Shown here one piece after another: positions 7,814-51,362 of a stretch of 64,000 bases of DNA. Position 1 is the first letter of the stretch, and each line of letters opens with the position of its first letter. The notes under the pieces were generated by a model. It saw only the letters and a list, made by a program, of their open reading frames with translations. It had not been told where the DNA came from and ran no database searches. Made by a program: the position numbers and the translations under genes. Source of the DNA: Bacteroidota bacterium (lineage in GTDB: Bacteria; Bacteroidota; Bacteroidia; JAIBAJ01). Location: positions 2,769-66,768 of the forward strand of contig CANJNG010000004.1 of NCBI GenBank assembly GCA_947475205.1, written 5' to 3'.

Positions 7814-10369
7814 TCATGGTTTCTTAATAAATATAAACTGCCCACCTTCATCTCCCGTGTTTTTAATGGGAGAAAATTTTGGTGTTTGTTCAGAATTGTT
7901 AATTACCGGAATTTTCACTTTGGTGTAAAGCTGACTGGCATCGAAGTATTTGCTTTGGTTTGATTCAAGCGTTTTTAGGAAATAATAGGCAAACACAGAG
8001 TGGCCATCTTTGCCGCCATCCATCACGGGTTCGAGTCCGCCTGATGTAAGTGCCTGGCGACTACTTAGGCTTTGAACTTCTTTGTAGTATTTTTCTGATT
8101 CTTCAAACGGCACCGAAACAGTATTTCCACGGAAGATATCCCCGCTAAAGCAAGCATCGGAAACTAATAAGGTGTGCTTACCCTTTATTCCGCTTATATA
8201 GGTTTGGATATCGGAATTGGAAATATACTTGGCTGTAGAAGAATTTTCGGCATCTGCCGGCACCCAATATCCTTTATTCAGCTCTTTTTTGTATTCGCCG
8301 TGGCCGGAATAGTAAATGAACACATTGTCTTCTGCTTTTACGTTGGCCACCAACCATTCTAATTGGGCAATTATATTTTCACGATTGGCTTGCTCGTTAT
8401 AAAGGGTTTTGAAAAACTCGAATTTGTAGCTGGCACGAAGCAGCTTTTCAATGGCACGGGCATCGTTGGTGGCATTTTGCAGTACCGGCCAAGTGCCTTT
8501 ATATTTATCAATCCCGATAATGAGAGCGTAATAATTGCCAATGACCATTGTTTTGGCTTTCGACACATTTAAACCTTTAAGGGGATCGCCACCTCCTCGA
8601 TACAAATTGGCATTAGGGTCGGTTTTTTGTTGTTCCAATTCGTTGGCCTGAGCTATAACATCAGCCGAATAGTCTTCGCCCGCCGAAAGGTTTTCGTTCA
8701 ACTTTACTCGTAGAATTAACTCTTTTGCATTGGTGAAAGCCGCTCCTTCAATATCCACTCCCATTTTTATTTCAGAAAGGGTAAATGTTTTATCTGCATA
8801 AAACTCCATAGCTATTTCTCGCTCTTCGCCTGCTGCCATTGCAGGGATTTGCTCTGAAATTTTATTCACCGCAAAAACGTGTTCAGGTAGCAGGAAATTC
8901 ACCTTAATATTTCGGGCTGCCCCTTTTGTAATGTTTTTAATTTTTAGTTTTAGCGTAATTGGAGCACCAATTTCAGCTTTTCCTGTGGCAGAAGTGTAGC
9001 TTTGATTCATCACCATGATGTAACTATAACTTCCGGCACCACCCGTTTGAAATGAGAGTCTGGTAGGGGAAGCATCGCTACCGTTGGCTTCAGAAATGTT
9101 CAACACGAATGCTCCGTTTCCGGCTTGCAAATCAGCATTGGCATTTATGGGAATACTTATACTCTGACTTTTATCCCCGCCCAAATTGCCAATAAATACT
9201 TCTTTATCAAAACTGATGTCGGACGTTGGATTATCGAGCGATAATTTTGCAATCAAACGATAGGCATCACCTTTGCTTTGATTTTTAACTGTGAATGTGA
9301 GGGATGCCTTCTCGCCTCCCTCTATTATTCCGTTGCTATTTTCATCAGCAATTGTCAGGTTAGTGCAAACTAAAGTTGGAGCAACTTCGGGCTTTGGGTA
9401 CTTTGGTAATCCGAATTTTAGTTCGGTCATATCCCAAAATATCAAGCCTCCATCTATCCCACCCGAAATCAATTGTGACATTGCACTATTAAAAGCAATT
9501 GCACTCACATTACTTCCAGTAATTCCAATTTCTTTAACCGTTTTTTCCGTTTCGGTATGCCAGATTAAAATCTTCTTGTCATCGCCGCCCGCAATAACAT
9601 ATTGCACATCGGGGCTAAACGTTACTGTATTTATCTGCCCTTTCACCCCTTCAAATTCTTTTACCTTGGTAAAAGTTTTCCCATCCCAAAGCGTTACTTT
9701 CCCATTTCCGCCGCCGCCTGCCAAATATTTCCCATCACCGCTGAAGGACAGTGCTGATACCCCTTTGCTATCAATATCTATAGTCTGAATTAAAGTTCCC
9801 GCTAGTGCATCCCAAATTTTGATGGTATTGTCTAAGGCAGCACTGACTAAGCGTTTGCCATCGGGACTAAAAACCACCGAAGTAATTTCCTTGCTGTGAC
9901 CACTGAGGGTAAAAACAGACGTTTTGCTTTTGCTATTATCCCACACCTTTAAGGAGTTGTCTTTAGCTCCGCTAACAATATAGTCGTTGATGGGATTAAA
10001 CGCCACAGCAGTAACGGCAGCAGTGTGTTCAGCCAAAATGCGAATCGGAACACCCTGAGCAATATCCACTACCCGCACTTTCATATCTGAGCAACCCGAA
10101 ACATAGAGTTTGTTACTTGCATTAATAGCCACAGCGTTCACCTTATCGTTCTGCTTCATTGCCCCTTTAAGCTTTTCAGTGGTTTTGGTGTTCCACACAA
10201 AGGTTTTGAAATCGTTTCCGCCCGATACCAAAATGTTTCCATCAGAACTTATTGCCAAAGCGTTTACGCCACCATCGTGAGCATTGGTTTTAATTTTCGC
10301 TGGCTGATCTTGGGCGTGAAGGTTGATGCCAAGGGTAATGAACCCAAACAGGATTATGCATTTTTTCAT
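7814..10369 (-). CDS. Secreted WD40-repeat / CARDB-like / caspase (peptidase C14) fusion protein
   Basis: The signal peptide is MKKCIILFGFITLGINLHAQ, from the internal Met at 10369. About seven WD40 blades follow (repeated xSGGxDxxxxxWD motifs). Two beta-sandwich CARDB-like segments come next. The C-terminal caspase domain has the His-Cys dyad (YYSGHGEY ... LLVSDACFSGDIF). Confidence 0.7.
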   Translation of the reverse strand: MKKCIILFGFITLGINLHAQDQPAKIKTNAHDGGVNALAISSDGNILVSGGNDFKTFVWNTKTTEKLKGAMKQNDKVNAVAINASNKLYVSGCSDMKVRVVDIAQGVPIRILAEHTAAVTAVAFNPINDYIVSGAKDNSLKVWDNSKSKTSVFTLSGHSKEITSVVFSPDGKRLVSAALDNTIKIWDALAGTLIQTIDIDSKGVSALSFSGDGKYLAGGGGNGKVTLWDGKTFTKVKEFEGVKGQINTVTFSPDVQYVIAGGDDKKILIWHTETEKTVKEIGITGSNVSAIAFNSAMSQLISGGIDGGLIFWDMTELKFGLPKYPKPEVAPTLVCTNLTIADENSNGIIEGGEKASLTFTVKNQSKGDAYRLIAKLSLDNPTSDISFDKEVFIGNLGGDKSQSISIPINANADLQAGNGAFVLNISEANGSDASPTRLSFQTGGAGSYSYIMVMNQSYTSATGKAEIGAPITLKLKIKNITKGAARNIKVNFLLPEHVFAVNKISEQIPAMAAGEEREIAMEFYADKTFTLSEIKMGVDIEGAAFTNAKELILRVKLNENLSAGEDYSADVIAQANELEQQKTDPNANLYRGGGDPLKGLNVSKAKTMVIGNYYALIIGIDKYKGTWPVLQNATNDARAIEKLLRASYKFEFFKTLYNEQANRENIIAQLEWLVANVKAEDNVFIYYSGHGEYKKELNKGYWVPADAENSSTAKYISNSDIQTYISGIKGKHTLLVSDACFSGDIFRGNTVSVPFEESEKYYKEVQSLSSRQALTSGGLEPVMDGGKDGHSVFAYYFLKTLESNQSKYFDASQLYTKVKIPVINNSEQTPKFSPIKNTGDEGGQFIFIKKP

Positions 10370-43202: not shown

Positions 43203-43538
43203 TTATTTTTGAACTATACTATTCCTAAGTTGGATTTCGAGCTGCGGCAATTGATTTTCAACTATTCGCCAAACGGCAAAGAAATCAGTCCCCATATAAT
43301 CGTGTATCAAAACATCACGCATTCCAGCAATTTTTTTCCACGGAATTTCGGAATGCATTTCTCTAAAGGGTATTGAAAGCCTTTTAGTGGCCTCGCCCAT
43401 TATTTCAAAACATCTTACAACAGCATTGCATGTTTTCTTGTCTTTCAAAAACGAATCTTGTGTGTAACCGAGTGTAAATTCCTTAATTTGGTCAATGGCA
43501 TCCAAGATGTGACCAACGTAAATGGTGTCGTCTTTCAT
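43203..43538 (-). CDS. HepT-like (DUF86) toxin of HepT/MNT type II TA pair
   Basis: 111 aa with the R-x(4)-HxY-like motif region (MRDVLIHDY). It overlaps the upstream MNT gene by 1 nt. Confidence 0.75.
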   Translation of the reverse strand: MKDDTIYVGHILDAIDQIKEFTLGYTQDSFLKDKKTCNAVVRCFEIMGEATKRLSIPFREMHSEIPWKKIAGMRDVLIHDYMGTDFFAVWRIVENQLPQLEIQLRNSIVQK

Positions 43539-43819
43539 TAATTGATTTGCCTTAAATCCTTTTGGATTAGGGTACTCAAAACCACCGAAAGCGACTGCTT
43601 AGTAACCAAATCAATGCGAATGCCCAACTTTTCAGACAAGGCTTCTTTGATGTCGAATAAATCGAATAAGTCATATTCAGAATTCAAATCAACCAATAAG
43701 TCTAAATCGCTATCTGGGCGATTTTGGTTACGAGAATAAGAGCCAAATACACCAACATAGACCGGATTATAGGGCAATAACACCGCTAAAATTGTTTGTT
43801 GCTGTTGGGTAGATAGCAT
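43538..43819 (-). CDS. Minimal nucleotidyltransferase (MNT) antitoxin
   Basis: The GSxxRG-type motif is VGVFGSYSRNQNRPDSDLDLLVDL. Confidence 0.75.
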   Translation of the reverse strand: MLSTQQQQTILAVLLPYNPVYVGVFGSYSRNQNRPDSDLDLLVDLNSEYDLFDLFDIKEALSEKLGIRIDLVTKQSLSVVLSTLIQKDLRQIN

Positions 43820-43929: not shown

Positions 43930-44634
43930 ATGAGCAATACCTACTCCGAAAACGAACACTATTCCATTAAAACTTGGGCAGAAGACGACAGACCCCGTGA
44001 AAAGCTTATGGCTAAAGGGAAATCGGCACTTTCGGATGCTGAATTAGTAGCTATACTCATCGGGTCGGGAAGCAGAAACGAAACTGCGGTGCAACTGTCG
44101 CAACGCATATTGCAAGCCTCACACAATAACCTTTTCGAGCTTTCAAAACTAACAGTAAAAGACCTTTGTAAGTTTAAAGGAATGGGTGAAGCTAAAGCTA
44201 TTTCTATTATTGCTGCTTTGGAATTGGGTCTTCGTCAAAAGGCTACGTTGAAATTAGAAAAGCCAAAAATTAGTTCTTCAGCTCAGTGTTTTCAAGAGTT
44301 ATACGATTTATTTGACCAAAACATTGAGGAGTTCTTTGTGCTGCTCCTAAATCAGTCTAACCATTTGATTGGTCGCCATAAAGTGAGCACAGGCGGAATT
44401 ACAGGAACTGTGGCTGACGTTCGGGTTATAGCCAGATTGGCTCTCGAACATCGGGCTGTTTCAGCCATTATTTCGCATAACCATCCTTCGGGCAACCTTA
44501 GACCCAGTGATGCAGATATTCAATTAACTAGAAAGGTAAAAGCCGGGTTAGAAACGCTTGATATAAAGCTGTTAGACCACATTATTGTTTCTGGAAACGA
44601 ATATTTTAGCTTTGGTGATGAGGGCTTGATGTAG
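43930..44634 (+). CDS. radC: RadC-like JAB-domain protein
   Basis: The N-terminal HhH region is DAELVAILIGSGSRNE. The JAMM motif is HNHPSG...SDAD. Confidence 0.85.
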   Translation: MSNTYSENEHYSIKTWAEDDRPREKLMAKGKSALSDAELVAILIGSGSRNETAVQLSQRILQASHNNLFELSKLTVKDLCKFKGMGEAKAISIIAALELGLRQKATLKLEKPKISSSAQCFQELYDLFDQNIEEFFVLLLNQSNHLIGRHKVSTGGITGTVADVRVIARLALEHRAVSAIISHNHPSGNLRPSDADIQLTRKVKAGLETLDIKLLDHIIVSGNEYFSFGDEGLM

Positions 44635-46299: not shown

Positions 46300-47262
46300 C
46301 TATACCAATCCCGCCTTCACACTTATATCCAACATCCTTCGCATGGGTAATTCTGCTTTCAACCGCAGGCCTTCTTCCATGGTTAATTCGGGCGTTTCGT
46401 TTTTCAGACAGAGATATACCTTTTCGAGCGTATTAAGCTTCATGTGTGGGCAATCGTTGCAAGCACAACTGTTGTTTGGCGGTGCCGGAATAAAGGTTTT
46501 ATTCGGGCTGGCTTTCATCATTTGGTGAATAATCCCCGTTTCAGTTGCCACTATAAATGCTTGTTCCGGACTTTTGATGGTGTAGTTCAACAGGGCAGTG
46601 GTGCTTCCAATGTATTCTGCCAGCTCCAACACCGGCTCTTCGCACTCGGGGTGAGCAATCACTATTGCCGCCGGGTTTTGTTCCTTTAGCCGCAATATGC
46701 GTTGTTGCGAAAATATTTCGTGCACCATGCAGCTTCCGTCCCATAGAATCATATCGCGTCCGGTTTTCCGGGCAATGTATCTTCCCAGGTTTTTATCCGG
46801 TGCAAAAATGATTTGCTTATCCTTCGGAATGCTGTTCACAATGGCTTCGGCATTGCTACTGGTGCAAATCAAATCGCTCAAGGCTTTAATTTCCGCCGTG
46901 CAGTTGATGTAGGAAACCACCACATGATCGGGATATTGCTGCTTAAACTTTGCAAACTCTTCGGGCGGACAACTATCGGCCAGCGAACACCCCGCTTTCA
47001 AATCGGGCAAAACCACTTTACGGGACGGATTGAGAATTTTGGCAGTTTCGGCCATGAAATGCACCCCGGCAAACACAATTATATCGGCATCGCTTTTGGC
47101 GGCCTGTTGCGAAAGTCCCAGGCTATCGCCAATATAATCGGCTATATCCTGAATATCGGGATTCTGATAATAGTGAGCCAGTATTACCGCATTCTTTTCT
47201 TTTTTGAGTTTCGCAATCTCTTCGAACAAATCTAATCCCTGCAATTCTAAATTTTTTGACAT
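46300..47262 (-). CDS. nadA: Quinolinate synthase NadA
   Basis: NadA signatures are present: [32 protein letters not shown], and Cys ligands in HPECEEP...C. The start was set at the internal Met MSKNLEL at 47262. Confidence 0.85.
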
Positions 47263-47811
47263 TTTGAAGTTATGAACACTTATATTAATTAAATCAATTT
47301 GTATTTTTTGAAATTTATAAAAATTAAAACCTTTTACTATTAATGATAGCCTGTTGAAACGGTTAGTAACCCTTGAAAAACGGGTGTTTTCCCGCAAGGT
47401 TATCAGCTACAGAATCCGGAGTTTTAAACATATTACAATTTGGCAAAAGTACAGAAATCAGCTACTTGTAAAGTAATTAACAAAGGCTGTAAAAACTTAT
47501 CATTTTCCCCGAAAAACATCTCTCCTTTTGTGTGTACTACTTGTGTGTAACTGCTCCCTAAAAAAGCATAAGTTTATGTAATTCGGCTGCATTCTATGCT
47601 AATGCACATTCCCAAACGATATACAAGCATAAAGTTTTGGAATTCTTCACACACACTAACCCGCCGTAGCTAACAATAAAACAGGGCAATTGTTAATAGA
47701 AAAAGCAGATTTTAGCATTGTAGTGAAAAGCTGTTCATAACCTGTGAATAGCTAACAAATTCATTTTTGGAGCAGAACTTTCCATCTTCCATCCCAACGT
47801 TTGGGTCCCGC

Positions 47812-47925
47812 TTTCGCCTATAGCCGCCTCAAATGCAGGCGGGCTATTTGGCTCTACCGGGGCTAGGGAGACAGGGAAGTGCTTTGATGGGAGGGTGTTT
47901 AATACCATTCGGGGGCATAAAAACG
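47812..47925 (+). repeat. About 110-bp element, copy A (GCCTATAGCCGCC...GGCGGGCTATTTGGC hairpin plus downstream conserved block)
   Basis: About 80% identical to 48574-48680. It lies roughly 70 bp upstream of the vapB-like gene. Confidence 0.8.
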
Positions 47926-47997
47926 AAACCTGAAAATTGCCAAGCCGCAACCCTGCTATTCCTGAATTTGTTTACTTTTGATAAATTTTAAAACAAA

Positions 47998-48189
47998 ATG
48001 ACTGTTATTCTTAAAAAAACCGACAGCCCCGAGGAGGTGAAACGGAAGATAGACCAGTTTATGGAAGCAAGAAGGTCGAAGAACTCCCCAAAAGAAGGGT
48101 TTGACCCCAGCAGATTTTTGGGAAAGTTGAAAGGAATGTATGGCGACCCCATGGAATATCAAAGGAGCGTTCGAGATGAGTGGGCTTGA
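47998..48189 (+). CDS. Putative antitoxin (VapB-like partner of the PIN toxin)
   Basis: 63 aa, charged. Its TGA stop lies 14 bp inside the PIN gene (ATGAGTGGGCTTGA overlap). Confidence 0.5.
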   Translation: MTVILKKTDSPEEVKRKIDQFMEARRSKNSPKEGFDPSRFLGKLKGMYGDPMEYQRSVRDEWA

Positions 48190-48550
48190 ATTATACTTGG
48201 TCGATACCAATATTTATATCCATTTATTTAATGGGAATATAAACGCCGAAAACGCTTTGAAAGGAAGGGTTTTGTATTTTTCCTACATTACCGAGATAGA
48301 GCTTTTGGGCTTTACCGGAATAAGCCCAGAGGCCATTCAAATAGTTAAGGATACACTGGCCTGCAATGTAAAAATTGACCACACCGAAACCATTACTCAA
48401 AAAGCTATTTGGCTGAAACAGCAGCAGAAAATGAAAACTCCCGATGCCATTATTGTAGCCACAGCAATATTGAACAATCTCCCTCTACTCACTGCCGATA
48501 AGGCCTTAGCCAATATCCCTGATTTAGACTGTATCCTCTTTGAAGGGTAA
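48176..48550 (+). CDS. vapC: PIN-domain toxin VapC
   Basis: Three acidic PIN residues sit in context: LYLVDTNIYIH, TPDAIIVATA and LLTADKAL. Confidence 0.75.
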   Translation: MSGLELYLVDTNIYIHLFNGNINAENALKGRVLYFSYITEIELLGFTGISPEAIQIVKDTLACNVKIDHTETITQKAIWLKQQQKMKTPDAIIVATAILNNLPLLTADKALANIPDLDCILFEG

Positions 48551-48573
48551 ACTCCCATAACATTTACTGCCTC

Positions 48574-48680
48574 TTTTGCCTATAGCCGCCCCAAATGCTG
48601 GTGGGCTATTTGGCTCAATCGGGGCTAGGTCGACAGGGCGATGCTATAATGGGCGGGTGCTAAATACCCATTCGGCAAAA
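48574..48680 (+). repeat. About 110-bp element, copy B
   Basis: The block runs TTTGCCTATAGCCGCCCCAAATGCTGGTGGGCTATTTGGCTC...GATGCTATAATGGGCGGGTGCTAAATACCCATTCGG. It contains a TGcTATAAT-like extended -10 box. It lies about 100 bp upstream of the methyltransferase gene. Confidence 0.8.
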
Positions 48681-48784
48681 ATCCAACGTTAATAAATAAG
48701 GATATATATTTTTTGAATCTTATTAAATGAATCAATTTCAGTTGTTCTTTTGTAACCATTGTATAAGGTTAAACTACTTGGTTA

Positions 48785-50025
48785 TGAAAGACTATTTATC
48801 ATTGACAGAAACTTCTGAGTATCTTGGGAAAAGCAAACAAACGCTAAGAAGATGGGATAAAGAAAAAAAGCTTGTTGCTGTTCGAGAGCCCATGAGTAAT
48901 TATAGGGTTTATAAAAGAGAACAACTTGAACTCTTTGCTGATTTCATTTCAAATACAGACAAAACTGATTATCCCAATGAAATAGATTCAGAAAACGAGT
49001 ACTCCGTTTTAGAACTATTTGCAGGAGCTGGTGGCTTAGCTGTAGGCTTGGAAAAAGCAGGATTAAAATGCGTTGCCTTAAATGAGATTGATAAATGGGC
49101 TTGCCAAACCTTAAGAAGAAACAGACCCAACTGGAAGGTGCTTGAGGGGGATATTAGAGCATTTGATTTCGTTGAATATAGAGATAGGGTCGATGTTGTT
49201 ACCGGAGGATTTCCATGCCAAGCCTTTAGTTATGCTGGCAAAAGACTTGGGTTGAGCGATGCCCGTGGAACTTTGTTTTACGAATTTGCAAGAGTGGTAA
49301 ATGAAATAAAACCACCAATTTGTATCGGTGAAAATGTGAGAGGGCTTTTAAGTCATGATAATGGCAGGACGTTAAGCGGAATGATTTCCATATTAGATGA
49401 AATTGGCTATAAAGTAGTTCCATATCGAATCCTGAAAGCGATAAACTATTATGTGCCGCAGAAAAGAGAACGATTGATTTTAGTTGGAGTTAGGAAAGAT
49501 ATTCAGATTGAATATCACTATCCAAAACCCACTAAGAAAATCTACACCCTAGCGGATGCACTAAAGAAAGGAGAACTATTTGACAAGGATGTTCCTGTTT
49601 CTGCCGGGGCTAAATATCCAAAGAGTAAAATTGATGTCATGAATTTGGTGCCTCCAAAGGGCTATTGGAGAGATTTGCCTTTAGATATCCAAAAGGAATT
49701 TATGGGTGGAAGTTTCTACCTTGGTGGAGGTAAGACCGGGATGGCAAGAAGAATAGGATGGGATGAGCCTTGCTTGACGCTTACTTGCAGCCCTGCTCAA
49801 AAGCAAACCGAAAGATGTCACCCCGATGAAACAAGACCTTTTACAGTAAGAGAATATGCCCGCATTCAAACATTCCCTGATGACTGGGAATTTGAAGGCT
49901 CAGTTGCTCAGCAATACAAGCAAATTGGAAATGCTGTACCAGTTAACTTAGGCAAGGAGGTTGGCTATTCCATAATCGAATTTTTGAATCAATATTATGC
50001 TCTAAAAGCCGAAAGAATAAAGTAA
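48785..50025 (+). CDS. DNA (cytosine-5)-methyltransferase with N-terminal MerR/Xis-like HTH
   Basis: C5-MTase motifs are present: I ELFAGAGGLAVG, IV GGFPCQAFSYAGK, VI ENVRGLL, and X near the C-terminus (GNAVPVNLG). The N-terminus reads LSLTETSEYLGKSKQTLRRWDKEKKL, consistent with an HTH. The start may instead be at 48727. Confidence 0.9.
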
Positions 50026-50733
50026 CTACTTGTATTTTTCTTGAATTTCTTTGGCCAGAGATTTTATAGTTTGTTCCACTACCTTACTTGCGTCAACTTC
50101 TAAAGCAACTTCACCAATGGCGTCAATCAATTCAAAATAAAAGTCGTCTTTTCCTGTAAGCCTATGCCAAAAATCTTTCCCAACAAAAACAGGATATGTA
50201 TTTCCGATTTTTTTATAATGTGAGCTAAGTTCTGCTGCTTCGCCATATACCACACAAACTATCATATCGTTGATGCCAACATTTATATTATTGGTTCTGG
50301 CAAGGCTACGAACGCCATTAAAGTGATTAATTATGGTAGTTACATCGTCATGATTGATTGTGTTTGGCCCTGCTTTTAACTGACAATATTTTTTCCTTCC
50401 GTCAATTGCATCTATAAATTCAATGTCGATTCCTTGAGTAGTAGAACCTAAGCCCTGAAATAAGGTGCTGATTAAACTCTGAATCTTCATTCCAAAGGAA
50501 GTATTAATTGAAGAGCCTAAAATTCGTGGCAGAACAAGAGCCCGGGCAATGCTTTCCGCATCATCGTTCCCTGTAAGGAAATTTGCCAGGTATTTAAATA
50601 AAAAGGGGTTAACATTGTATTCCGACAGTTTACTTGCTCTTTTGCAAGCACCGTCAATATGGCTTTGTACAATTTCATTTCTGAAAAACGTTTTTGCATT
50701 TTCAATTATTTGTTTTCTCTGACTATTGTTCAT
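50026..50733 (-). CDS. Putative type II restriction endonuclease (cognate of the C5-MTase)
   Basis: 235-aa ORF convergent with the MTase gene, with stop codons 1 bp apart. It has a candidate PD-(D/E)xK-like segment (GIDIEFIDAIDGRKKYCQLK). The region is low in GC. Confidence 0.45.
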   Translation of the reverse strand: MNNSQRKQIIENAKTFFRNEIVQSHIDGACKRASKLSEYNVNPFLFKYLANFLTGNDDAESIARALVLPRILGSSINTSFGMKIQSLISTLFQGLGSTTQGIDIEFIDAIDGRKKYCQLKAGPNTINHDDVTTIINHFNGVRSLARTNNINVGINDMIVCVVYGEAAELSSHYKKIGNTYPVFVGKDFWHRLTGKDDFYFELIDAIGEVALEVDASKVVEQTIKSLAKEIQEKYK

Positions 50734-50943: not shown

Positions 50944-50984
<41 letters not shown>

Positions 50985-51040: not shown

Positions 51041-51300
51041 GGTCTATTTCTGTCCGAAGTAAGGCTATTTCCATCCGAAATAGGGCTGTTTCCATTCGAA
51101 ATAGGGCTGTTTCCATCCGAAACAGGGCTGTTTCCGTCCGAAATAGGGCTATTTCCATCCGAAATAGGGCTATTTCCATCCGAAGTAAGGCTATTTCCAT
51201 CCGAAACAGGGCTGTTTCCATCCGAAACAGGGCTGTTTCCATCCGAAATAGGGCTGTTTCCATCCGAAATAGGGCTGTTTCCATCCGAAATAGGTCTATT
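51041..51300. repeat. 21-bp minisatellite, about 12 units (consensus GGCTGTTTCCATCCGAAATAG)
   Basis: Units differ at 1-3 positions (ATTT vs GTTT, AATAG vs AACAG vs AGTAA). The ORFs 50911..51306 (+) and 50982..51284/50992..51312 (-) are repeat artefacts. Confidence 0.9.
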
Positions 51301-51362
51301 TTCTAAACTCAAAACTTCGTTTACATCTTAAATATTTATATTAATCCCTAAAAATCAATACA

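What the first reader, a model, noticed from the sequence alone, without database searches (positions are those of the whole stretch)
47812..48680. vapBC module flanked by two ~110-bp direct repeats that each sit just upstream of a foreign gene
Copies at 47812-47925 and 48574-48680 are about 80% identical. Both begin with an imperfect hairpin (GCCTATAGCCGCC … GGCGGGCTATTTGGC) and continue with a conserved block ending …ATACC(C)ATTCGG. Copy B contains TGCTATAAT, an extended -10-like box. Each lies 70-100 bp upstream of a plus-strand gene, vapB and the methyltransferase. They could be portable promoter or 5'-leader elements, a small structured RNA, or the ends of a miniature mobile cassette carrying vapBC.
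Basis: seen in the sequence. Interest (0 to 1): 0.6.

Follow-up and report, generated by a model that had tools for sequence, protein, structure and literature searches.

The report
Conserved stem-loop repeats flanking vapBC
The two repeats around the vapBC toxin-antitoxin genes are real, and they are copies of a previously undescribed non-coding stem-loop element found between genes in several Bacteroidota genomes; they are most likely an RNA hairpin in untranslated regions, not a promoter or the ends of a mobile cassette.

Summary
There are two direct copies, at 47808-47912 and 48570-48675, 83% identical over 106 nt, and the 64-kb window holds no others. Weaker homology extends the unit to about 47790-47930 and 48552-48690.

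The conserved core is a 55-nt irregular hairpin: 47807-47861 in copy A and 48569-48623 in copy B. It is not specific to vapBC. Related copies occur in Flavobacterium psychrotolerans, in a JGI metagenome contig, and three or more times in two related Bacteroidia genomes, each next to unrelated genes.

Across eight copies, 93% of pair cells form pairs and 12 of 19 pairs show compensatory changes. G·U wobbles are strongly one-sided, 21 on the sense strand against 2 on the antisense strand. The + strand is therefore the folded one.

Copy A has positional orthologues upstream of nadA in two relatives. Copy B shares copy A's apex and 3' extension, so it is a diverged local duplicate.

No Rfam family matches. 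No promoter is conserved inside the repeat, and vapB and the methyltransferase each have a Bacteroidota-type -7 box outside it. No integrase or transposase lies within about 10 kb.

Best reading: a new structured intergenic RNA element, functionally REP-like. Its function is inferred, not shown.

The parts
47790..47930 (+). Repeat unit A, full extent of homology with unit B. It comprises a 5' flank, hairpin 1, a G-rich linker, hairpin 2 and an A-rich tail.
   Evidence: Pairwise alignments.
47807..47861 (+). Hairpin 1 of copy A, the family-defining core. Layout: CCCG / 5x5 internal loop / GCC / 1x2 loop / ATAGCC-GCC, apex, then the complementary arm. An outer helix may extend it to 47801-47866.
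   Evidence: Folds; covariance model hits of 84 and 80 bits; covariation.
47886..47909 (+). Hairpin 2 of copy A (GATGG ... CCATT). It lies in the 3' extension that only copies A and B share.
   Evidence: Read from the sequence and from the MFE folds. With only two sequences it is weakly supported.
48552..48690 (+). Repeat unit B. It starts right after the vapC stop codon. Its 5' end is degenerate: two of the four pairs of the basal helix (CCCG/CGGG in copy A) are broken.
   Evidence: pair table.
48569..48623 (+). Hairpin 1 of copy B.
   Evidence: Covariance model hits of 74 and 68 bits; fold.
48648..48672 (+). Hairpin 2 of copy B (AATGGG ... CCCATT).
   Evidence: Sequence; fold.
47998..48189 (+). 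63-aa ORF in the antitoxin position (vapB-like). It overlaps the PIN gene by 14 nt and matches no family.
   Evidence: The exact protein is found only at this same locus in 16 metagenome contigs.
48176..48550 (+). PIN-domain toxin (VapC-like).
   Evidence: Pfam PIN E=5.7e-12; NCBIfam VapC is below its cut-off. The nearest homologues are only 43-50% identical.
47973..47980 (+). Perfect Bacteroidota-type -7 box (TACTTTTG), 17 nt before the vapB ATG and outside repeat A.
   Evidence: My own motif scan. The consensus is taken from established knowledge, and its function here is inferred.
48745..48752 (+). A -7-like box (TTCTTTTG, one mismatch) upstream of the ATG at 48784 of the methyltransferase, outside repeat B.
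48784..50025 (+). HTH-fused C5 DNA methyltransferase, 413 aa.
   Evidence: Homologues at about 80% identity are abundant in Bacteroidota.
50026..50733 (-). EcoO109I-family restriction endonuclease, convergent with the methyltransferase.
46300..47262 (-). nadA. Its roughly 500-nt upstream region (47263-47790) is conserved in relatives, and copy A sits at the distal end of that region.

Best explanation
The two repeats are paralogous copies of an undescribed non-coding element of Bacteroidota.

Anatomy (shown). The core is an irregular stem-loop of 55-85 nt. It has a basal helix (CCCG/CGGG), a conserved 5x5 internal loop (CUUUC / UCUAU), a 3-bp helix, a conserved 1x2 loop (U / UU), an upper helix, and an apex that varies in sequence and length.

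Structure (shown). The structure is maintained by compensatory substitutions, and it is maintained on one strand, the + strand of the window.

Origin of the two copies (inferred). Copy A is the resident copy at the distal end of the conserved nadA upstream region; relatives have a copy at the same place and in the same orientation. Copy B is a diverged duplicate of A that sits immediately 3' of vapC. It shares A's apex and 3' extension, but its 5' end is degenerate. vapBC therefore ended up bracketed by two direct copies.

Mechanism (inferred). The element is transcribed as part of neighbouring transcripts, in 3'-UTR, intercistronic or 5'-UTR positions. It acts as an RNA stem-loop whose conserved unpaired nucleotides are recognised by a host factor. 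Its role would be REP-like 'punctuation': protection against exonucleases, a processing site, or modulation of transcript ends. It is not a promoter and not the boundary of a vapBC cassette.

The confidence of 0.5 is for the whole statement. Membership in a conserved structured hairpin family is about 0.85, action as RNA rather than DNA about 0.5-0.6, and the specific punctuation role about 0.25.
For: Family membership beyond this locus:
- L131, a JGI contig, 83% identical over 65 nt.
- L134, Flavobacterium psychrotolerans, 78% over 64 nt, lying between rpsA and a membrane-protein ORF.
- L126, two copies.
- L159, two copies.

Structure:
- A MAFFT alignment of 8 copies gives a 19-pair consensus, 12 pairs with both-sided changes.
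- 93.4% of cells are paired. 0/500 shuffles reach the covariation score of 0.553. Slid controls are at most 52% paired.
- A model-fitted alignment gives the same picture.
- The second subtype alone has 11 compensatory pairs and invariant G·U pairs.

Strand:
- 142/152 cells pair on the sense strand, with 21 G·U. Only 123/152 pair on the antisense strand, with 2 G·U.
- The antisense consensus has only 12 pairs at -9.5 kcal/mol, against 19 pairs at -17.3 kcal/mol.

Not coding: substitutions between A and B fall in codon phases 6/5/6, with Ts/Tv 8/9.

Position and orientation:
- Copy A, L126c1 and L159c1 lie at the same end of the conserved nadA upstream region and in the same orientation.
- In all three intergenic regions that lie between co-oriented genes, the element is in the sense orientation. 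In the window, L131 and L159c2 it starts within about 0-20 nt of the upstream stop codon.
- Several copies (winB, L131, L159c1) have no -7-like box within 200 nt upstream, so they would be transcribed by read-through.

A and B share an apex and a 3' extension that no other copy has.
Against: - No expression data exist, so transcription is not shown.
- Single-sequence folding energies are not significantly better than shuffles: z = +0.07 and -0.58 for the full units, -0.9 to -1.4 for the core on the + strand.
- There are only eight copies from about five lineages. Related sequences can inflate shuffle statistics, and the structure was predicted on the strand it is then counted on.
- A strand bias in G·U would also fit a single-stranded-DNA hairpin.
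- The orientation evidence rests on three informative intergenic regions (chance about 1/8).
- Copy number per genome is unknown. The source genome is not in the genome collection, and I could scan each large collection only once, with one exact pattern.
- The mechanism that duplicated the unit around vapBC is unknown.
- The specific RNA role (stabiliser, processing or termination) is a guess by analogy.
Confidence: 0.5

Rival explanations
1. The element is a DNA-level selfish or semi-selfish interspersed repeat (REP/RAYT-type or a short MITE). The two arms of the 'hairpin' are really terminal inverted repeats recognised by a transposase supplied in trans. The two copies here are independent insertions or a local duplication, with no RNA function.
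For: - It is multi-copy and intergenic, next to unrelated genes, with two copies within 15 kb in L126 and two within about 12 kb in L159.
- The window subtype is more similar to a Flavobacterium copy than to the positional orthologues in closer relatives (84 bits against 26-30 bits with model R1; biased, because R1 was built from the window subtype, including the Flavobacterium copy). That pattern suggests horizontal spread or turnover.
- Co-evolution of inverted-repeat arms would also look like 'compensatory' change.
Against: - No target-site duplication is visible at any copy (read).
- No transposase or RAYT gene is seen in the annotated 20 kb around the locus.
- Compensatory changes also occur in the apex, which would not be a transposase-binding arm. 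They occur even between two paralogues in one genome.
- Conserved G·U positions and a 21-to-2 wobble asymmetry are not expected for inverted-repeat arms.
- Three lineages share the same position upstream of nadA.
- No copies were found in plasmid or viral collections.
Confidence: 0.2
2. The copies are trans-acting small RNA paralogues, independent sRNA genes with their own promoters and terminators.
For: - The fold is conserved and strand-specific.
- In L131 a canonical terminator hairpin follows 27 nt downstream.
- L134 and L126c1 have -7-like boxes 76-99 nt upstream.
- The second subtype carries an upstream small hairpin with a C-rich loop.
Against: - No promoter box lies at a conserved distance. 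Three copies have none within 200 nt.
- No terminator follows most copies, and none is called on the + strand here.
- The L131 terminator has its long T-run on the opposite strand and probably serves the convergent 5S rRNA gene.
Confidence: 0.12
3. The hairpin is a single-stranded-DNA recombination or insertion site, analogous to an integron attC or an IS200/IS605 end. vapBC was captured by recombination at it, leaving one site on each side of the cassette.
For: - The architecture resembles attC in outline: a basal box, an unpaired central spacer, a second box with extrahelical bases, and a variable terminal structure. It is strand-specific.
- One accessory module is flanked by two same-orientation sites. 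Copy B abuts the stop codon of the cassette's last gene, as attC sites do.
- A restriction-modification module follows.
Against: - The attC core sites R'' RYYYAAC and R' GTTRRRY are absent from the corresponding positions (sequence).
- There is no third site after the restriction-modification module.
- No integrase is seen nearby.
- A and B are each other's closest relatives over 140 nt including non-hairpin sequence, which points to duplication of resident DNA rather than a foreign cassette site.
- Other copies flank housekeeping genes, not cassettes.
- vapC and methyltransferase homologues elsewhere lack the element.
- No strain lacking vapBC was found among 13-16 contigs.
Confidence: 0.07
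4. The repeats are a portable promoter or operator, a duplicated regulatory region that drives or regulates vapB and the methyltransferase. For example, they could be an operator for the HTH domain of the methyltransferase or for VapB.
For: - Both copies lie upstream of a + strand gene.
- Copy B contains TGCTATAAT.
- HTH-fused methyltransferases and VapB proteins typically autoregulate through palindromic operators (established knowledge).
Against: - The -10-like box is not conserved in copy A, and no -35 partner is found.
- Bacteroidota housekeeping promoters use a different consensus (established knowledge).
- Better -7 boxes lie between each repeat and its gene.
- The same element lies next to genes unrelated to toxin-antitoxin or restriction-modification systems in other genomes.
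- A methyltransferase homologue (81% identical) has only 48 nt of upstream spacer and no element.
Confidence: 0.04

Closest known systems
REP / BIME elements of Enterobacteria and Pseudomonas
   Same: Both are G+C-rich imperfect palindromes found in several copies in intergenic regions. Both often sit just after stop codons, are co-transcribed with flanking genes, and are unrelated to the function of those genes. The proposed role, as an RNA stem-loop that punctuates transcripts, is what REPs are known to do.
   Different: REPs are shorter (about 20-40 nt), carry a GTAG/GTGG head, occur in hundreds of copies and in both orientations (often as inverted pairs), and are tied to RAYT transposases. 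Here the stem-loop is 55-85 nt with conserved internal loops. It shows a strand bias, its copy number appears low (2 in 64 kb), and no RAYT was seen.
ERIC/IRU, Correia/NEMIS, RUP and BOX: long palindromic MITE-like repeats
   Same: These are also intergenic elements of about 100-150 nt that fold into long irregular hairpins when transcribed and can affect mRNA processing and stability.
   Different: They have clear terminal inverted repeats and target-site duplications (Correia: TA), and they show insertion polymorphism. None of these features was seen here. In addition, three lineages keep a copy at the same locus with compensatory changes.
Integron attC sites / CALIN arrays
   Same: Both are strand-specific hairpins whose structure, more than their sequence, is conserved. 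Both have a variable apex, unpaired spacer and bulged bases, form same-orientation copies flanking an accessory gene module, and have the site abutting the 3' end of the cassette ORF.
   Different: The RYYYAAC/GTTRRRY core sites are absent. There is no integrase. There are only two sites, and the second module is not closed by a third. The loops are conserved in sequence, and copies lie next to housekeeping genes.
Orphan structured-RNA motifs of Bacteroidota found by comparative genomics, as collected in Rfam
   Same: It is defined in the same way: a conserved intergenic sequence with covarying helices and no known function.
   Different: No Rfam 15 family matches either copy or its relatives, at gathering thresholds or at E up to 5-10 in local scans.

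Membership tests
Integron attC site | Core sites R'' (RYYYAAC) at the 5' end and R' (GTTRRRY) at the 3' end, pairing with each other at the base of the hairpin. | tested here: not met
   The base of the hairpin is CCCG/CGGG. AAC/GTT occurs only as AACGTT, once upstream of copy A (47797-47802) and once downstream of copy B (48685-48690), not at equivalent positions.
Integron attC site | Occurs in arrays separating cassettes, usually next to an intI integrase (or as CALIN clusters). | tested here: not met
   The 64 kb holds only two sites. No integrase domain appears among genes annotated from about 38 to 58.5 kb. The remainder of the window was not annotated.
REP (repetitive extragenic palindrome) | A short (20-40 nt) palindrome with a conserved GTAG/GTGG head, tens to hundreds of copies per genome, and an associated RAYT. 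| tested here: inconclusive
   The length (55-85 nt) and the lack of a 5' GTAG head do not fit, although the second subtype has GTAG inside the stem. Genome-wide copy number could not be measured, and no RAYT was seen in the annotated part.
MITE | Terminal inverted repeats plus target-site duplication, and presence/absence polymorphism. | tested here: not met
   The arms could be read as imperfect inverted repeats, but no flanking duplication is seen at any of four inspected copies. All 13-16 contigs of the species carry the same arrangement.
Any Rfam 15 RNA family | A covariance-model score at or above the gathering threshold. | tested here: not met
   There are no hits in the window at gathering thresholds. 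Nothing overlaps the repeats at E<=10 or E<=5. Nothing matches at the related copies.
tRNA/tmRNA-derived attachment site | The repeat corresponds to the 3' part of a tRNA or tmRNA gene. | tested here: not met
   ARAGORN finds no tRNA or tmRNA in the window, L131 or L134.
DGR template/variable repeat pair | Differences confined to adenines of one copy, one copy inside a target gene, and a reverse transcriptase nearby. | tested here: not met
   The 17 differences involve all bases (Ts/Tv 8/9). Both copies are intergenic. No reverse transcriptase is in the annotated neighbourhood.
Type II VapBC toxin-antitoxin module (the genes between the repeats) | A PIN-domain toxin preceded by a small overlapping antitoxin gene. 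| tested here: met
   PIN E=5.7e-12. A 63-aa ORF overlaps it by 14 nt. The antitoxin matches no family, so 'VapB' is assigned by position only.
Structured RNA motif (generic criterion) | Helices supported by compensatory substitutions above controls, on one strand. | tested here: met
   12 of 19 pairs are compensatory. 0/500 shuffles reach the observed score. Slid controls are at most 52% paired against 93%. G·U pairs are 21 on the sense strand against 2 on the antisense strand. The caveat is that there are only eight sequences.

The most novel reading that the evidence does not exclude
The hairpin is a strand-specific, single-stranded recombination site of Bacteroidota, functionally like an integron attC but with different core sequences and an unlinked, unknown recombinase. 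Small defence modules such as vapBC are captured at it. The A-vapBC-B arrangement would be one captured cassette.
Probability: 0.07. Interest if true: 0.8.

Novelty: new member of a known kind. Interest (0 to 1): 0.38.

Why it matters
If the reading is right, this is an uncatalogued structured non-coding element shared by distant Bacteroidota, a Flavobacterium and an uncultured Bacteroidia lineage. Its conserved unpaired nucleotides imply a dedicated binding partner. Post-transcriptional control is poorly charted in Bacteroidota, which lack Hfq/ProQ-type chaperones and mostly lack Shine-Dalgarno sequences, so a reusable UTR stem-loop would be a useful handle. For annotation, the result shows that the repeats are not evidence that vapBC is a self-contained mobile cassette. 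It is a modest finding, not a surprising one: many bacterial phyla have such repeats.

Tried and rejected
1. Known RNA family, tRNA or tmRNA: Rfam and ARAGORN were negative.

2. Small ORF: A and B share an ATG and an open frame (MQAGYL.../MLVGYL...). However, substitutions show no codon periodicity, and the frame is not kept in L131 or L134 (sequence).

3. Element travelling with vapBC: the nearest VapC homologues (43-50% identical) in L136-L143 have no element.

4. Element travelling with the restriction-modification module: an 81%-identical methyltransferase in a 5.7-Mb genome has a different endonuclease partner and no element.

5. Deletion or empty-site variants within the species: none was found. 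All contigs carrying the exact VapB, methyltransferase or NadA show the same locus at >=99.9% identity.

6. Contig breaks inside copy A (L001 and L003 start at 47856): considered as a sign of more copies, but rejected as uninformative because other contigs break at many unrelated positions.

7. Plasmid and viral homes: there are no real matches. The viral hits are chance matches to the search word.

8. Sigma-70 promoter or intrinsic terminator in the repeats: none on the + strand.

9. Thermodynamic stability alone: z-scores are not significant, so the case rests on comparative data.

10. DGR, attC and MITE readings: see the membership tests.

11. The conserved nadA upstream region as a large structured RNA or a small gene: it is not coding, and its consensus fold is very weak.

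12. Searching the protein database with translations of the repeat: considered but not run. The apex length varies, so only 7-8 residues would be shared.

Full report
**The observation**

The two direct repeats exist.
- An ungapped comparison gives 47808-47906 vs 48570-48668 at 83% identity.
- A gapped comparison gives 47808-47912 vs 48570-48675, 83% over 106 nt, E=6e-24.
- A 21-nt pattern from the 5' end occurs only at these two places, with none expected by chance.
- Weaker homology extends the unit to about 47790-47930 and 48552-48690. Copy B therefore starts at the vapC stop codon.
- The repeats are G+C-rich, 55% and 53% against 41% for the window.

**The genes**

- A 63-aa ORF with no family match (47998-48189) overlaps a PIN/VapC gene (48176-48550).
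- Next comes an HTH-fused C5 methyltransferase (most likely 48784-50025).
- A convergent EcoO109I-type endonuclease follows (50026-50733, - strand).
- nadA lies upstream on the - strand (46300-47262).
- T9SS sorting domains nearby place the organism in Bacteroidota.

**What it is not**

- No Rfam family matches at gathering thresholds or in permissive local scans.
- There is no tRNA or tmRNA.
- The differences between A and B show no codon periodicity (phases 6/5/6) and no adenine bias. The repeat is therefore neither coding nor a DGR pair.
- The TGCTATAAT in copy B (48642-48650) reads TGCTTTGAT in copy A, and no sigma-70-like site is called on the + strand.
- From established knowledge, Bacteroidota housekeeping promoters use -33 TTTG / -7 TAnnTTTG. 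A perfect -7 box (TACTTTTG, 47973-47980) lies between repeat A and vapB. A one-mismatch box (TTCTTTTG, 48745-48752) lies between repeat B and the ATG at 48784. Both are outside the repeats.
- Single-sequence folding energies are unremarkable.

**Relatives elsewhere**

All contigs carrying the exact VapB, VapC, methyltransferase or NadA are the same locus at >=99.9% identity. They give no variation, and no vapBC-less variant.

One exact-pattern scan of each large collection found real homologues of the 5' half only.
- A JGI contig, L131 7578-7640. It lies after a + ORF and before a convergent 5S rRNA gene.
- Flavobacterium psychrotolerans, L134 6001-6063. It lies between rpsA on the - strand and a membrane-protein ORF on the + strand.

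The source genome itself is not in the genome collection.

A covariance model built on these four sequences finds only the two copies in the window, even with filters off. It does detect diverged copies in genomes whose NadA is 84-85% identical.
- L126 has two copies.
- L159/L160 has one copy.
- A rebuilt model adds a second copy in L159, between hflX and gidA.
- Plasmid and viral collections hold nothing real.

**Structure**

All copies fold into the same irregular stem-loop. From base to tip it has:
- a basal helix;
- a conserved 5x5 internal loop;
- a 3-bp helix;
- a 1x2 loop;
- an upper helix;
- an apex that varies from about 14 to 36 nt but stays paired.

On a MAFFT alignment of eight copies, RNAalifold predicts 19 pairs, 12 with both-sided changes. 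Of the pair cells, 93.4% are paired. No shuffle out of 500 reaches the covariation score, and structures slid by 1-3 columns drop to 22-52% paired. The second subtype alone shows 11 compensatory pairs, including changes between two paralogues of one genome.

The structure is strand-specific.
- Sense strand: 142/152 cells paired, with 21 G·U.
- Antisense strand: 123/152 cells paired, with 2 G·U.
- Folding the reverse-complement alignment gives only 12 pairs at -9.5 kcal/mol, against 19 pairs at -17.3 kcal/mol.

Caveats: the sequences are few and related, and the sense structure was predicted on the strand on which it was then counted.

**History at this locus**

The roughly 500 nt upstream of nadA are conserved at the nucleotide level in five lineages. 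In three of them (the window, L126 and L159) the element sits at the distal end of that region, on the strand opposite to nadA. Copy A is therefore best read as a resident, vertically inherited copy. It has since diverged through compensatory changes: GCC/GGC to GGC/GCC or GGU/ACC, and AUAG/CUAU to GUAG/CUAC.

Copies A and B share an apex and a 45-60-nt 3' extension, with a second small hairpin, that no other copy has. They are each other's closest relatives. B has a degenerate basal helix and lacks the upstream flank, which is replaced by vapC.

I infer that B is a diverged duplicate of resident sequence, not a site brought in with a foreign cassette. How the duplication arose around vapBC is unknown. 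The longest exact match between A and B is 14 nt, so RecA-mediated deletion should be rare. That is consistent with the absence of deletion variants.

**Association with the flanked genes**

- VapC homologues elsewhere (43-50% identical) lack the element.
- The methyltransferase family is abundant in Bacteroidota at about 80% identity.
- One methyltransferase homologue, in a 5.7-Mb genome, has an Eco47II-type endonuclease partner, a 48-nt upstream spacer and no element.
- Other copies of the element neighbour ABC-F, aquaporin, gidA, rpsA and 5S rRNA genes.

The element is therefore generic, not tied to toxin-antitoxin or restriction-modification modules.

**Mechanism (inferred)**

- The element is always in the sense orientation in the three intergenic regions that lie between co-oriented genes.
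- It often begins within 0-20 nt of the upstream stop codon.
- It has no promoter box at a fixed distance. Three copies have none within 200 nt.
- No terminator follows most copies.

Together with the strand-specific covariation and the conserved unpaired nucleotides, this fits best a cis-acting RNA stem-loop in untranslated regions that is recognised by a host factor. That would be REP-like transcript punctuation.

The rivals are a DNA-level mobile repeat, independent sRNA genes, an attC-like recombination site, and a duplicated promoter or operator. They are scored in the report with their evidence. None is excluded by experiment.

**Verdict**

The element is a new family of a familiar kind, of modest interest.

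Noticed in passing
window 47263-47790 (also L126 3740-4406, L159 210-824, L161 9351-10000, L128 2856-3506): The roughly 500-nt region upstream of nadA is conserved at the nucleotide level in five lineages whose NadA is only about 85% identical. It includes a tandem TTCAACAG motif (GGTTTTCAACAGTTTCAACAGG in the nadA sense). Similarity appears in several frames and on both strands, so the region is not coding. There is no Rfam hit and only a weak consensus fold. It may be a long regulatory region or leader for nadA.
   Followed up: partly
window 50945-50984 and 51053-51301: Two tandem arrays lie just beyond the endonuclease gene: GGTCAGC x5.7 and a 21-nt unit x11.9. Spurious ORFs are called over them. 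Metagenome assemblies of the same species differ here (different ORF sizes in L145, L146 and L005), and several contigs end at 50984, so the array length is probably variable.
   Followed up: partly
window 43203-43819 and 43930-44634; L136-L140: A second toxin-antitoxin pair (HepT-like HEPN plus MNT nucleotidyltransferase) lies next to radC, about 4 kb upstream of vapBC. In another lineage, the distant vapBC homologue (43% identical) sits directly downstream of radC.
   Followed up: no
window 48727 vs 48784; L165 10001-11982: The methyltransferase ORF can start at 48727 or 48784. The -7-like box at 48745-48752 and most gene calls favour 48784 (413 aa). This HTH-fused C5 methyltransferase family is very common in Bacteroidota at about 80% identity, and it changes its endonuclease partner: EcoO109I-type here, Eco47II-type in L165.
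   Followed up: partly
L126 3790-3810 and 14895-14915; L159 255-275 and 4010-4030 (approximate): The second subtype of the element carries, about 50 nt upstream of the main hairpin, a small conserved hairpin with a C-rich loop (GCGGGCCCCCTCCGC). The window copies lack it. L131 and L134 instead share a GGAGCGA-like block 35-45 nt upstream, and window copy A has a weak version of that block (GGAGCAGA, 47770-47777).
   Followed up: partly
L126 14460-14631: Two tandem 86-nt units (74% identical), each itself an inverted repeat, lie between the second copy of the element and the aquaporin gene. They appear to be another, unrelated repeat family in the same long intergenic region.
   Followed up: no
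window 9796-9873 (+): This is the weak third-best covariance-model hit (14 bits, E about 0.3). It lies inside a long - strand ORF, with ATCGGGGCTA-like words nearby (9608, 9860). I take it to be chance.
   Followed up: partly
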